This document shows, piece by piece, positions 30,302 through 47,100 of a DNA stretch of 64,000 bases. How positions within the stretch are numbered: the stretch's first letter is position 1; every line of letters begins with the position of its first letter. The position numbers were made by a program, and so were the translations under genes. The notes beneath the pieces were generated by a model that saw nothing but the letters and a program-made list of their open reading frames with translations, searched no databases and was not told the DNA's origin. Source of the stretch: Macrostomum lignano (lineage: Eukaryota); NCBI GenBank assembly GCA_002269645.1, contig NIVC01000543.1, forward strand, positions 372,001 to 436,000, in the 5' to 3' direction.

Positions 30302-30403
30302 AGTAGTAGTATGTTATAAGGGGCTGCGCCACACTTATCGCTCTGGCGCATTACGCGCCAGCTCGCTGGATGTCTCAGCCCCTTATAACATACTACTACT
30401 ACT
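30302..30403. repeat. ~100-bp hairpin with 25-bp perfect arms and (AGT)n/(ACT)n ends; possible Polinton termini or mini-element
   Basis: AGTAGTAGTATGTTATAAGGGGCTG (30302-30326) and its exact reverse complement (30376-30400). Confidence 0.75.
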
Positions 30404-31351
30404 ACCGGGAGGTCAGAGTTGCAAGTGTGTGTGTGATAAATATAAAAATATAAAAATATACATATATCTGTGAGTGAGGGTGTTGAGGGTGAGGGCATGT
30501 GGGGGGCATTGGCCTGTGGTATATTTCACAGAACACAGATTTTCCGGAATTTTTATACTTTTTAAAAAGGGGGGTGCCCTCGCCCTCATGCCCTCACTCA
30601 TTTTGAAAATCACTAAAAACAGGTGAAAAATGACTAAAAACAGGTGAAAATGGTCTGAAAACAGCGATTTTTTGTAATTTTCAAAAATTTTGAAAAAGTG
30701 CAATTTTCACGATTCCAGCTCTAAAACCACGAGAAAGGTTGGATTCACGGGTCAATTTAATGCAATTTCAGGTATATACAATATGAAAGTGTCATCCAAT
30801 TCAACGATAGTAATATATATATATATAAAATGGCCTTCAGTAAACCATTATTTATAGGAAATGCTTTAGATATTCAGTCAGCTATAACAAAACTGCCACT
30901 TGTCAACTCTGCAACAATGAAAAGCAGCACTCAACATTTCTATTGGCTTGCTGAAACATGAATAAATTCTGATGCAGATTTTGCACAATAGAATTACTTC
31001 TGAATTGCAAAAAAAAATTCTCCTTCACCCTGTGGGACTGAATGTATTCGAATTGTAGACAGCATTGTTATCACGATGACTAAGAATCATGGCTTCTTCC
31101 ATATCTTCATCACCTCTGTCTTTTATTCTCTCTGACTCACTCAAAAAGCCTCCAGCATCATGCAAAGAATTAAAATACTCGCAGTAAAATACAGTCTACC
31201 ACTCATGGCACAGGCAGGAAGAGGCACAGGCTCTAAAGGCGACAGGCGCAAATGTAGCGAAAATTAAGAAGACAAAGTGTAATGCTAAAGTTTGATTATC
31301 TATAGAAATTTGCCCAAAAGAAAGCAAAAATGTTAAATTTTCTTAGAAAAA

Positions 31352-31696
31352 ATGGAAGCTAATAACCCAAATGTTCGAAATCCTCTGCCACAAAAATACT
31401 ATGATTCTATTATAAATTTCTCTCAAATAAAAACACCCACTCGAAAGGCTCGACTAATTGAAGAAATTGATAAAGCTTACGATGAATATAAAGCAGAAAT
31501 ATTAAAACACACCGATTGTAAATGCCCCCCATATTTGTATTCATTCAGAGTATATCTTGCACATGTTGATAAATGGGCATTGATTTCGAGACAGCACATA
31601 AGGAATGATGAATTTTTCGTCATGCTTAAGTTGAACATTTTCAAACTCCCCATAACCCTTAAGAAGTACATTGAAACTGATGAATTATATTGTTAA
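31352..31696 (+). CDS. Hypothetical viral protein (114 aa)
   Basis: ATG-started ORF with the same composition and orientation as the neighbouring viral genes; no motif recognised. Confidence 0.5.
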   Translation: MEANNPNVRNPLPQKYYDSIINFSQIKTPTRKARLIEEIDKAYDEYKAEILKHTDCKCPPYLYSFRVYLAHVDKWALISRQHIRNDEFFVMLKLNIFKLPITLKKYIETDELYC

Positions 31697-31712
31697 ATTT
31701 ATTTTAAATAAA

Positions 31713-43169: not shown

Positions 43170-43729
43170 TTTTTTTACCTACTGCTAGTAGAAGTAGCAG
43201 TTCAGAGTGAATATTTTCAGCAAGAGAAAATTGCAATTTACGAAACTTCGTAAACTCTTTAATGAAAAAGCAGAAAATACTAAAATATATTTTTTACCTA
43301 CTGCTAGTAGAAGTAGCAGTTCAGAGGGAAGATTTTTAGCGACAGAAAATTTCAATTTACGAAACATCGTAAACTCTTTAATGAAAAAGCAGAAAATACT
43401 AAAACATATTTTTTACCTACTGCTAGTAGAAGTAGCAGTTCAGAGGGAATATTTTTAGCGACAGAAAATTTCAATTTACGAAACTTCGTAAACTCTTTAA
43501 TGAAAAAGCAGAAAATACTAAAATATATTTTTTACCTACTGCTAGTAGAAGTAGCAGTTCAGAGGGAATATTTTTAGCGACAGAAAATTTCAATTTACGA
43601 AACTTCGTAAACTCTTTAATGAAAAAGCAGAAAATACTAAAATATATTTTTTACCTACTGCTAGTAGAAGTAGCAGTTCAGAGGGAATATTTTTAGCGAC
43701 AGAAAATTTCAATTTACGAAACTTCGTAA
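43170..43729. repeat. 119-bp subtelomeric satellite, ~4.7 copies
   Basis: ACCTACTGCTAGTAGAAG recurs at 43177, 43296, 43415, 43534 and 43653. Confidence 0.95.
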
Positions 43730-43955
43730 GCATATAAAAGACAATCAAGATTCAGAAAAAAATAAGATTTTTTTTCAAAGGGTAAGGACCCTGCGCTGAT
43801 GATTTAAAGTCTTTGGGATCTGGTTTCGCCGCTTTGGATTGAATGTGGGGAGAAGAATGCAGATTTTTTTCTAATTGTTTCGAAGATGCTATGGGTGGAT
43901 GTCAGTGGATTATGTCTGTGTCAGTGAGCATAACAGGTATCAGTGGACACCTGCT

Positions 43956-44158
43956 CTGATTCTGTCAGGGATAATATGGATGGATTTAATGGGATTATGT
44001 TCGAAGTTTTCGGAGCAAGTGCGGCCCCTCCCCTTTTTCATGATTCTGTCGGGGATAATATGGATGGATTTAATGGGATTATGGAGGACGTTTTGTGAGC
44101 GAGTGCGACCCCCCTTTTTTCTGATTCTGTCGGGAATAATATAGATGGATTTAACGGG
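43956..44158. repeat. ~85-bp telomere-adjacent repeat, 2 full copies plus 1 truncated
   Basis: TGATTCTGTC..GATAATATGGATGGATTTAATGGG occurs three times; the third copy runs into the array. Confidence 0.85.
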
Positions 44159-47100
44159 TTAGGGTTAGGGTTAGGGTTAGGGTTAGGGTTAGGGTTAGGG
44201 TTAGGGTTAGGGTTAGGGTTAGGGTTAGGGTTAGGGTTAGGGTTAGGGTTAGGGTTAGGGTTAGGGTTAGGGTTAGGGTTAGGGTTAGGGTTAGGGTTAG
44301 GGTTAGGGTTAGGGTTAGGGTTAGGGTTAGGGTTAGGGTTAGGGTTAGGGTTAGGGTTAGGGTTAGGGTTAGGGTTAGGGTTAGGGTTAGGGTTAGGGTT
44401 AGGGTTAGGGTTAGGGTTAGGGTTAGGGTTAGGGTTAGGGTTAGGGTTAGGGTTAGGGTTAGGGTTAGGGTTAGGGTTAGGGTTAGGGTTAGGGTTAGGG
44501 TTAGGGTTAGGGTTAGGGTTAGGGTTAGGGTTAGGGTTAGGGTTAGGGTTAGGGTTAGGGTTAGGGTTAGGGTTAGGGTTAGGGTTAGGGTTAGGGTTAG
44601 GGTTAGGGTTAGGGTTAGGGTTAGGGTTAGGGTTAGGGTTAGGGTTAGGGTTAGGGTTAGGGTTAGGGTTAGGGTTAGGGTTAGGGTTAGGGTTAGGGTT
44701 AGGGTTAGGGTTAGGGTTAGGGTTAGGGTTAGGGTTAGGGTTAGGGTTAGGGTTAGGGTTAGGGTTAGGGTTAGGGTTAGGGTTAGGGTTAGGGTTAGGG
44801 TTAGGGTTAGGGTTAGGGTTAGGGTTAGGGTTAGGGTTAGGGTTAGGGTTAGGGTTAGGGTTAGGGTTAGGGTTAGGGTTAGGGTTAGGGTTAGGGTTAG
44901 GGTTAGGGTTAGGGTTAGGGTTAGGGTTAGGGTTAGGGTTAGGGTTAGGGTTAGGGTTAGGGTTAGGGTTAGGGTTAGGGTTAGGGTTAGGGTTAGGGTT
45001 AGGGTTAGGGTTAGGGTTAGGGTTAGGGTTAGGGTTAGGGTTAGGGTTAGGGTTAGGGTTAGGGTTAGGGTTAGGGTTAGGGTTAGGGTTAGGGTTAGGG
45101 TTAGGGTTAGGGTTAGGGTTAGGGTTAGGGTTAGGGTTAGGGTTAGGGTTAGGGTTAGGGTTAGGGTTAGGGTTAGGGTTAGGGTTAGGGTTAGGGTTAG
45201 GGTTAGGGTTAGGGTTAGGGTTAGGGTTAGGGTTAGGGTTAGGGTTAGGGTTAGGGTTAGGGTTAGGGTTAGGGTTAGGGTTAGGGTTAGGGTTAGGGTT
45301 AGGGTTAGGGTTAGGGTTAGGGTTAGGGTTAGGGTTAGGGTTAGGGTTAGGGTTAGGGTTAGGGTTAGGGTTAGGGTTAGGGTTAGGGTTAGGGTTAGGG
45401 TTAGGGTTAGGGTTAGGGTTAGGGTTAGGGTTAGGGTTAGGGTTAGGGTTAGGGTTAGGGTTAGGGTTAGGGTTAGGGTTAGGGTTAGGGTTAGGGTTAG
45501 GGTTAGGGTTAGGGTTAGGGTTAGGGTTAGGGTTAGGGTTAGGGTTAGGGTTAGGGTTAGGGTTAGGGTTAGGGTTAGGGTTAGGGTTAGGGTTAGGGTT
45601 AGGGTTAGGGTTAGGGTTAGGGTTAGGGTTAGGGTTAGGGTTAGGGTTAGGGTTAGGGTTAGGGTTAGGGTTAGGGTTAGGGTTAGGGTTAGGGTTAGGG
45701 TTAGGGTTAGGGTTAGGGTTAGGGTTAGGGTTAGGGTTAGGGTTAGGGTTAGGGTTAGGGTTAGGGTTAGGGTTAGGGTTAGGGTTAGGGTTAGGGTTAG
45801 GGTTAGGGTTAGGGTTAGGGTTAGGGTTAGGGTTAGGGTTAGGGTTAGGGTTAGGGTTAGGGTTAGGGTTAGGGTTAGGGTTAGGGTTAGGGTTAGGGTT
45901 AGGGTTAGGGTTAGGGTTAGGGTTAGGGTTAGGGTTAGGGTTAGGGTTAGGGTTAGGGTTAGGGTTAGGGTTAGGGTTAGGGTTAGGGTTAGGGTTAGGG
46001 TTAGGGTTAGGGTTAGGGTTAGGGTTAGGGTTAGGGTTAGGGTTAGGGTTAGGGTTAGGGTTAGGGTTAGGGTTAGGGTTAGGGTTAGGGTTAGGGTTAG
46101 GGTTAGGGTTAGGGTTAGGGTTAGGGTTAGGGTTAGGGTTAGGGTTAGGGTTAGGGTTAGGGTTAGGGTTAGGGTTAGGGTTAGGGTTAGGGTTAGGGTT
46201 AGGGTTAGGGTTAGGGTTAGGGTTAGGGTTAGGGTTAGGGTTAGGGTTAGGGTTAGGGTTAGGGTTAGGGTTAGGGTTAGGGTTAGGGTTAGGGTTAGGG
46301 TTAGGGTTAGGGTTAGGGTTAGGGTTAGGGTTAGGGTTAGGGTTAGGGTTAGGGTTAGGGTTAGGGTTAGGGTTAGGGTTAGGGTTAGGGTTAGGGTTAG
46401 GGTTAGGGTTAGGGTTAGGGTTAGGGTTAGGGTTAGGGTTAGGGTTAGGGTTAGGGTTAGGGTTAGGGTTAGGGTTAGGGTTAGGGTTAGGGTTAGGGTT
46501 AGGGTTAGGGTTAGGGTTAGGGTTAGGGTTAGGGTTAGGGTTAGGGTTAGGGTTAGGGTTAGGGTTAGGGTTAGGGTTAGGGTTAGGGTTAGGGTTAGGG
46601 TTAGGGTTAGGGTTAGGGTTAGGGTTAGGGTTAGGGTTAGGGTTAGGGTTAGGGTTAGGGTTAGGGTTAGGGTTAGGGTTAGGGTTAGGGTTAGGGTTAG
46701 GGTTAGGGTTAGGGTTAGGGTTAGGGTTAGGGTTAGGGTTAGGGTTAGGGTTAGGGTTAGGGTTAGGGTTAGGGTTAGGGTTAGGGTTAGGGTTAGGGTT
46801 AGGGTTAGGGTTAGGGTTAGGGTTAGGGTTAGGGTTAGGGTTAGGGTTAGGGTTAGGGTTAGGGTTAGGGTTAGGGTTAGGGTTAGGGTTAGGGTTAGGG
46901 TTAGGGTTAGGGTTAGGGTTAGGGTTAGGGTTAGGGTTAGGGTTAGGGTTAGGGTTAGGGTTAGGGTTAGGGTTAGGGTTAGGGTTAGGGTTAGGGTTAG
47001 GGTTAGGGTTAGGGTTAGGGTTAGGGTTAGGGTTAGGGTTAGGGTTAGGGTTAGGGTTAGGGTTAGGGTTAGGGTTAGGGTTAGGGTTAGGGTTAGGGTT

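What the first reader, a model, noticed from the sequence alone, without database searches (positions are those of the whole stretch)
30302..44160. Integrase-less Polinton/adintovirus-like endogenous virus beside a telomere
A complete morphogenesis module (MCP, penton, ATPase, protease and accessory ORFs) is present. The retroviral-type integrase that defines Polintons is not seen, nor a tyrosine recombinase or paired TIRs. The block ends ~2 kb from a 12.5-kb telomere array. Either it is a deletion derivative of an ordinary Polinton, or it belongs to a lineage captured at chromosome ends by recombination or end healing, as some herpesviruses integrate at telomeres.
Basis: partly seen in the sequence, partly recalled or inferred. 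Interest (0 to 1): 0.88.

Follow-up and report, generated by a model that had tools for sequence, protein, structure and literature searches.

The report
Telomere-capped hybrid of two broken Polintons
The block is the left 4 kb of one ordinary virus-like transposon (Polinton) family fused to the right 10 kb of another, both of which carry integrases elsewhere in this genome, likely joined by DNA break repair and likely capped by a newly added telomere, so it is a one-off wreck and not an integrase-less, telomere-seeking virus.

Summary
The block is a hybrid of two unrelated Polinton families. Bases 30302-34311 are the left end of family A (about 18 kb). Bases 34371-44158 are the right part of family B (mostly 14-19 kb). 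The families share no DNA similarity. Complete copies carry an rve integrase (A 5 of 5, B 10 of 10), paired terminal inverted repeats (TIRs) and 6-bp target duplications (exact in 6 of 10 B and 2 of 5 A copies). Both integrases lay in the parts lost here. The 59 bases between the halves are short direct and inverted copies of neighbouring DNA, typical of polymerase-theta-type break repair. A similar scar lies 7 kb to the left, between two Gypsy pieces. The telomere is not 2 kb away: it starts inside B's own right TIR, 53 bp short of the normal end. Both junctions were found only here. None of 58 other element ends adjoins a telomere array, and none of four other long arrays adjoins A or B. Likely reading: a broken chromosome end in a transposon nest, repaired and healed with a new telomere. 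An assembly artefact is not excluded.

The parts
26013..27441 (-). 3' part of a Gypsy retrotransposon (family 1): likely LTR and integrase core; not part of the Polinton
   Evidence: rve PF00665 E 1.7e-8 on 26679-27302; 26400-27441 matches other copies at 94-98% and stops at 27441; multi-copy sequence starts at about 26013
27442..27464 (.). Junction 1: 23-base insert between two Gypsy families, with a 17-base inverted copy of Gypsy-2 sequence starting 53 bp upstream of the break and an 11-base direct duplication
27465..30301 (+). 5' part of a second Gypsy (gag-protease-RT-RNaseH, one in-frame stop), cut where family A begins
   Evidence: Pfam; 97-99% to C2719 and C169, which continue as Gypsy without Polinton sequence
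30302..30901 (+). Left TIR of Polinton family A; its first 99 bases form a near-perfect hairpin
   Evidence: matches both ends of 5 complete A copies at 92-97%; fold -34.9 kcal/mol, z -9.2
31352..31696 (+). 114-aa ORF of family A, no Pfam family
31656..34173 (+). Family A D5-like primase-helicase (Prim-Pol, PriCT-2, D5_N), here in three reading-frame pieces; one 833-aa ORF in copy C2232
34312..34370 (.). Junction 2 (A to B): 59-base insert made of a 10-base-period direct duplication, a perfect 39-base inverted copy of 34256-34294, and 4 further bases
   Evidence: joined form in 1 of 40 scored places, the window itself
34371..35369 (+). C-terminal part of family B protein-primed DNA polymerase B; the start of this ORF (34347) lies in the inverted insert
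   Evidence: 79% of the C-terminal PolB ORF of copy C142, 0% of its N-terminal ORF; Atlas look-alikes 0.98 to DNA_pol_B_2 clusters; PF03175 on the upstream ORF of C142
35444..35845 (+). Adenain-type cysteine protease (family B)
   Evidence: Peptidase_C5 E 1.6e-4
35850..36527 (-). 225-aa protein with a hydrophobic middle; resembles adintovirus GasderminX (recalled label, not tested)
   Evidence: no informative Pfam; unnamed viral/animal clusters 0.93
36639..37298 (-). 219-aa ORF, likely coiled-coil (family B)
37315..38136 (-). A32/FtsK-type packaging ATPase (family B)
   Evidence: Pox_A32 E 3.3e-6
38322..39951 (-). Two accessory ORFs, 132 and 404 aa (family B), no Pfam family
39983..41269 (+). 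Major capsid protein, double jelly roll (family B), open
   Evidence: PF21738; 98 of 98 scored genomic matches at 97-100%; 9 outside homologues, all PF21738
41295..42158 (+). Penton-like minor capsid gene (family B), split by an in-frame stop in this copy
   Evidence: 287-aa ORF in other copies; stop absent from 29 of 29 others; 21% to the family A counterpart; name by inference
42163..43750 (.). Non-coding right-end region of a family B subtype, with 119-bp tandem repeats
   Evidence: shared with C70, C658, C986 and others at 91-97%
43751..44158 (+). Right TIR of family B with 84-bp repeats, cut 53 bp before the normal terminus
44156..56645 (+). (TTAGGG)n array, G-rich strand running away from the element; shares three bases (44156-44158) with the TIR; first 1722 units uninterrupted; ends at an N gap (56646-56901)
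   Evidence: junction pattern found once in the genome

Best explanation
The block is a defective hybrid of the left end of Polinton family A and the right part of Polinton family B, likely joined by polymerase-theta-type repair of a chromosome break and likely capped by a telomere added de novo inside B's terminal repeat. Shown: the two-family make-up, the loss of both integrases with the missing parts, the templated inserts at two junctions, and the telomere starting 53 bp inside B's TIR at a three-base overlap. Inferred order: family A inserted by its own integrase into a Gypsy element in a transposon nest; one or more double-strand breaks removed the right 14 kb of A and the left 6-7.5 kb of a B copy and were sealed with templated inserts; a further break in B's right TIR lost everything distal, and the new end received TTAGGG repeats. 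The scaffolder then likely placed an unrelated contig behind the array. The hybrid would not be mobile: no integrase, half a polymerase, unmatched ends.
For: Window 30302-34323 aligns to bases 1-4018 of an 18,258-bp A copy at 96.9%, and 34371-44153 to bases 7552-16040 of a 16,098-bp B copy. A and B have no blastn match to each other and only 20-34% protein identity, so the join cannot come from shared sequence. In contigs of 4 of 4 public runs (4 studies), sequence leaves the window at 34311 into ordinary A and enters at 34371 from ordinary B, the same boundaries as the genomic copies. Integrase: rve above the Pfam cut-off in 2 of 2 B and 2 of 2 A proteins scanned; present in 10 of 10 B and 5 of 5 A copies with two ends; 117 of 117 scored genomic matches at 91-100%. 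Target duplications of 6 bp: B exact in 6 of 10, 5-of-6 in 3, unmatched in 1; A exact in 2 of 5. Inserts at both junctions are direct and inverted copies of nearby DNA, the scar described for Pol theta in PMC7165422 (passages). Both junctions were found only here. No telomere array beside 29 other B ends or 29 other A ends; no A or B sequence beside the other 4 long arrays found.
Against: No unrearranged allele of the flank was found, so deletion in place and translocation cannot be told apart. The array is internal in the scaffold, with about 117 kb after the gap, so its position at a chromosome end is inferred from its orientation, length and purity. The 39-base inverted insert is longer than the 3-30 bp typical of Pol theta in PMC7165422. 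PMC11293586 (passages) found that most new telomeres in cancers lack the telomerase seed overlap and may arise by capture, so the enzyme that added the array is open. Three of 5 complete A copies have unmatched flanks that belong to other copies, so these repeats do get recombined or mis-assembled in this genome.
Confidence: 0.74

Rival explanations
1. Assembly or library artefact: one or more of the junctions comes from a chimeric molecule or a mis-join, and the hybrid does not exist in the animal.
For: Each junction occurs once in the assembly. Flanks of 3 of 5 complete A copies are swapped between loci. The array sits beside a scaffold gap with sequence placed after it.
Against: A and B share no DNA, so a repeat-driven mis-join has nothing to join on. 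Two separate junctions carry multi-step templated inserts, which assemblers are not known to produce (own knowledge). The array has the orientation of a natural end.
Confidence: 0.12
2. Capture of free element DNA: a chromosome broken inside the A copy was patched with a piece of an extrachromosomal linear family-B genome, whose free right end, trimmed by 53 bp, was then capped with telomere repeats.
For: The telomere starts only 53 bp from B's natural terminus. Family B is young and abundant, with mostly open capsid and integrase genes (95 of 98 and 104 of 117 scored matches without a stop), so free copies are plausible. PMC8502044 (passages) reports apparently free-ended linear forms of such elements.
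Against: No free form was shown here. This B piece has its own damage (penton stop), as expected of a copy resident in the chromosome. A terminal break in an integrated copy explains the same sequence.
Confidence: 0.11
3. An integrase-less Polinton-like lineage that enters chromosomes at telomeres by recombination, as some herpesviruses do.
For: No integrase in the block and direct contact with a 12.5-kb telomere array.
Against: Relatives carry integrase, TIRs and target duplications. No telomere link in 58 other ends or 4 other long arrays. No TTAGGG arrays in the ends of either family. The hybrid occurs once.
Confidence: 0.02

Closest known systems
Polintons/Mavericks (polintoviruses; animal forms called adintoviruses, PMC8502044)
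   Same: Both parent families are 14-19 kb in most complete copies, with TIRs, 6-bp target duplications, rve integrase, type B polymerase, A32 ATPase, adenain-type protease and double-jelly-roll capsid. B also has a parvovirus-type PLA2 gene (PF08398), which PMC8502044 names PLA2X.
   Different: The window copy is a two-family hybrid with no integrase, half a polymerase and unmatched ends. Family A carries a D5-like primase-helicase and a 99-base terminal hairpin.
Locally templated insertions of polymerase-theta-mediated end joining (PMC7165422)
   Same: Direct and inverted copies of flanking DNA at the junction, in more than one round, in AT-rich sequence at junction 2.
   Different: The 39-base inverted copy is longer than the usual 3-30 bp; the enzyme was not tested here.
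De novo telomere addition / neotelomeres (PMC11293586)
   Same: An array starting abruptly in non-telomeric DNA with a three-base overlap, in the (GGGTTA)n phase that the telomerase model predicts.
   Different: Here the healed end lies in a Polinton TIR of an animal genome assembly, not in a tumour; telomere capture is not excluded.
Telomere-integrating herpesviruses such as HHV-6 and Marek's disease virus (recalled, no call)
   Same: Viral DNA directly next to a telomere array.
   Different: Those viruses carry their own TTAGGG arrays and integrate at telomeres as a rule. Families A and B carry none, use integrases and are dispersed.

Membership tests
Polinton/Maverick (parent families A and B) | Retroviral-type (rve) integrase | tested here: met
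   PF00665 above cut-off in 4 of 4 proteins scanned; 10 of 10 B and 5 of 5 A two-ended copies
Polinton/Maverick (parent families A and B) | [quoted passage not shown] | tested here: met
   PF03175 E 1.2e-6 on the B upstream ORF; A polymerase ORF 33% identical to B's over 411 aa; protein priming itself not tested
Polinton/Maverick (parent families A and B) | Paired terminal inverted repeats | tested here: met
   A about 600-875 bp in 5 copies; B about 450-720 bp in 4 copies and both termini in 10 of 10
Polinton/Maverick (parent families A and B) | 6-bp target-site duplication (length recalled from the founding papers, not held) | tested here: met
   B exact 6 of 10, near 3 of 10; A exact 2 of 5
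Polinton/Maverick (parent families A and B) | Capsid, penton, ATPase and protease module | tested here: met
   Pfam for capsid and ATPase in both families and protease in B; A protease 27% to B's, pentons 21% to each other; penton name by inference
Complete autonomous Polinton (the window block itself) | Integrase, whole polymerase and matching TIRs in one element | tested here: not met
   0% integrase cover, 0% of the N-terminal polymerase ORF, ends from two families
Integrase-less Polinton-like virus (PLV) lineage | Relatives also lack rve integrase and share the same gene set | tested here: not met
   relatives carry integrase; the hybrid gene set occurs once
Telomere-integrating virus | Copies enriched at telomeres | tested here: not met
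   0 of 29 other B ends, 0 of 29 other A ends, 0 of 4 other long arrays
Telomere-integrating virus | Own telomeric repeat arrays at the genome ends | tested here: not met
   none in the TIRs of A or B
Alpha or Beta adintovirus class | Polymerase clade, and PLA2X versus GasderminX accessory genes | tested here: inconclusive
   B has a PLA2 domain gene and a GasderminX-like candidate that was not confirmed; no phylogeny with reference viruses was run
De novo healed telomere | Array is a physical chromosome end, absent from the unrearranged allele | not testable with these tools
   no allele found; needs long reads or FISH

The most novel reading that the evidence does not exclude
Polinton activity itself breaks and reshapes chromosome ends in this animal: a cut near the family-B terminus (failed excision, or a free linear genome patched onto a broken end) made an end that was healed with a new telomere, leaving a capsid module as the last genes of a chromosome. 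With two young, high-copy families this would be a system in which Polinton-driven chromosome breakage can be tested directly.
Probability: 0.12. Interest if true: 0.55.

Novelty: new member of a known kind. Interest (0 to 1): 0.22.

Why it matters
As found, it matters little: it is a damaged hybrid of two ordinary Polinton families and gives no support for an integrase-less, telomere-seeking virus. It is a useful warning that a gene set read from one endogenous copy can be a chimera of two families. Two things keep modest value. A telomere healed inside a Polinton terminal repeat, next to two templated repair scars, is a clear fossil of chromosome-end repair if reads confirm it. And the genome holds two young, high-copy, capsid-coding Polinton families, a possible model for the open question of whether animal Polintons form particles and move.

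Tried and rejected
Reads: contigs of 4 runs from 4 studies were laid on 34050-34650. None covers 34312-34370 and none bridges the join. The tool states that contigs drop rare variants and that a hole proves nothing, and a single-copy join between high-copy repeats is such a case, so this is not counted either way. No raw-read or long-read run was offered; no RNA holder is on record, so expression is untested. The telomere junction was not tested with reads. Allele search: no second copy of the immediate flank 24600-26000 among 40 scored of 2051 candidates; the neuron-navigator gene has one other copy at 89%; the 19000-26500 search returned only dispersed repeats in the 150 of 296 rows shown. 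Solved-structure search with the polymerase piece gave 0 matches. Earlier scan notes: none for this genome. Literature searches: Polinton + telomere + subtelomeric gave 13 papers, 12 listed, none about telomere-targeted Polintons by title or abstract start, not read further; two searches gave 0; some searches were seen as listings. Supplements were not opened. Rejected readings: the neighbouring Gypsy integrase (26679-27302) as the element's integrase, since it belongs to a separate multi-copy retrotransposon; the 84-bp and 119-bp repeats as host subtelomere, since they are family-B end sequence; the 39-bp inverted repeat as a regulatory hairpin, since only one arm exists in other copies. No capsid or polymerase phylogeny, fold prediction or complex prediction was run.
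Full report
What was checked. The window is G000:C543:372001-436000 in a 764-Mb assembly of 5269 contigs. The host looks like an animal: arrestin and neuron-navigator genes lie at 3895-12794 and the telomere unit is TTAGGG. I listed ORFs, scanned 18 of them against Pfam, and searched the genome for relatives of the capsid, both ends, the junctions and the integrase.

The genes are there, with damage. The block holds a D5-like primase-helicase in three reading-frame pieces, the C-terminal part of a type B polymerase, a protease, an A32 ATPase, a double-jelly-roll capsid gene and a penton-like gene split by a stop that 29 of 29 other copies lack. 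No integrase is present: the A, B and Gypsy integrases gave no tblastn hit at E up to 10 and one tyrosine recombinase gave E 1.6.

The block is two elements. The capsid has 98 of 98 scored matches at 97-100% identity, out of 664 candidates. The left end has 40 scored full-length matches out of 167 candidates, several as inverted pairs about 18 kb apart. Five such pairs were fetched. They match the window only over 30302-34323 and carry their own, different capsid gene: family A. Six regions chosen by the capsid match the window from 34371 onwards, apart from one 290-base stretch at 73% in C1638: family B. A and B give no blastn match to each other, and their proteins are 20-34% identical. The window keeps about 4.0 of 18.3 kb of A and lacks the first 7.55 kb of B copy C142 (5.8 kb of copy C70). 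Contigs from 4 of 4 public runs leave the window sequence at 34311 and enter it at 34371, continuing as ordinary A and B.

Both families are ordinary Polintons. The rve domain scores above the Pfam cut-off in 2 of 2 B and 2 of 2 A proteins scanned. The integrase is present in 10 of 10 B copies and 5 of 5 A copies with two ends; these copies were picked by capsid or terminus, not by integrase. The B integrase has 117 of 117 scored matches at 91-100%, none on C543. Six-base target duplications are exact in 6 of 10 B copies, off by one base in 3 and unmatched in 1, and exact in 2 of 5 A copies. PMC5499653 (abstract start in the listing) states that Polintons by definition encode the polymerase and a retrovirus-like integrase; PMC4046053 (passages) and PMC8502044 (passages) give size, TIRs and gene set. 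The 6-bp length is recalled.

The junction looks like break repair. Between 34311 and 34371 lie 59 bases: a duplication with a 10-base period, a perfect 39-base inverted copy of 34256-34294, and 4 more bases. The joined form was found in 1 of 40 scored places, the window itself; 25 others match only the A side and 14 only the B side. A second scar lies at 27442-27464, where two Gypsy families meet head to head, with a 17-base inverted copy from 53 bp upstream of the break and an 11-base duplication. PMC7165422 (passages) describes direct and inverted templated insertions of 3-30 bp, with longer ones from several rounds, as characteristic of polymerase theta. The enzyme is inferred. The A left end at 30302 looks like a normal insertion into Gypsy-2, whose two close copies continue without it.

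The telomere starts inside B's terminal repeat. The right TIR is followed to 44158, 53 bp before the usual terminus, where three shared bases lead into 1722 uninterrupted units. This junction pattern occurs once in the genome. The array runs G-rich strand outward to an N gap, with about 117 kb scaffolded behind it. Of 30 B-end loci, only the window has a telomere run (one locus is cut by a contig start). The 30 A-end loci have 0-4 scattered hexamers in 1.5 kb of flank. A pattern for array starts gave 36 matches; 30 loci plus 5 further stretches were examined. Five contigs hold long arrays (C543, C139, C1288, C2492, C3378), and only C543 has A or B beside it. The pattern sees only one phase, so this is a lower bound on arrays. 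PMC11293586 (passages) says this phase with a short overlap is what telomerase healing predicts, but also that most tumour neotelomeres do not follow it, so capture remains possible.

How it most likely arose. Shown: two-family make-up, lost integrases, templated scars, telomere inside the TIR, uniqueness in the assembly. Inferred: A inserted into a Gypsy in a transposon nest; breaks were sealed by end joining with large losses; a last break in B's TIR was healed with a new telomere. Whether the pieces were neighbours or were brought together cannot be told, as no unrearranged allele was found. I give this 0.74, an artefact 0.12, capture of a free B genome 0.11 and a telomere-targeting lineage 0.02.

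Results against my reading. The array is internal in the scaffold. Three of 5 complete A copies have flanks belonging to other copies, so recombination or mis-assembly happens in these repeats. The 39-base insert is longer than usual. Direct read support for the junctions is lacking, and copy counts are lower bounds that include apparent haplotype duplicates (identical flanks on different contigs).

Novelty. The two families are new members of a known kind as far as tested: the closest outside capsid proteins are 71-78% identical and unnamed. The hybrid itself is a defective one-off. Searches showed no paper on telomere-targeted or telomere-healed Polintons, but the library lacks most subscription papers and I read listings only. 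Interest 0.22.

Noticed in passing
G000-wide; Two young, high-copy Polinton families. B: 664 capsid candidates, 98 scored at 97-100%, 95 without a stop. A: 167 terminus candidates, 40 scored at 92-100%. Counts are lower bounds and include apparent haplotype duplicates.
   Followed up: partly
window 30302-30400 and both ends of family A copies: Each A TIR begins with a 99-base near-perfect hairpin (z -9.2), in the same orientation in all + strand copies printed. It could serve as a replication origin; A also encodes a primase-helicase. Flip/flop forms were not searched for.
   Followed up: partly
L056-L077 (A-end loci): Family A sits inside family B at 6 of 30 end loci, or 3 of 21 distinct sites; binomial P 0.002-0.024 if B makes up an assumed 1.3-3% of the genome. 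A weak hint of target preference.
   Followed up: partly
C5112, C3947, C67 (L078-L085): Three complete A copies have left and right flanks that belong to different insertion sites, which points to ectopic recombination or mis-joins across 18-kb repeats.
   Followed up: partly
L031:4194-4691 and window 35850-36527: Family B has both a parvovirus-type PLA2 gene and a GasderminX-like candidate, which PMC8502044 assigns to different virion modules. The second label is recalled and unconfirmed.
   Followed up: partly
L083/L087 (family A copies): Family A carries an Eco47II-like endonuclease ORF (PF09553) and an F5/8 type C domain protein (PF00754).
   Followed up: no
L031:7052-7705: A tyrosine-recombinase ORF (PF00589, below cut-off) lies inside B copy C110 only, likely a nested DIRS-type insertion.
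   Followed up: no
C1652, C276, C2829, C1098 and others: Several contigs show two B capsid genes 7-15 kb apart, some in inverted orientation, suggesting palindromic or internally rearranged B derivatives; C33 is an 8.7-kb B copy with integrase but no polymerase.
   Followed up: no
L119-L146 (C19, C51, C350, C781, C1230, C2443, C2831): A dispersed repeat family carries a short internal TTAGGG run at the same position, and is related to the satellite-rich region at window 19000-24500.
   Followed up: no
window 24695-24743 and 25937-25985: A 1.3-kb unit with inverted ends, likely a small DNA transposon, just left of the Gypsy LTR.
   Followed up: no
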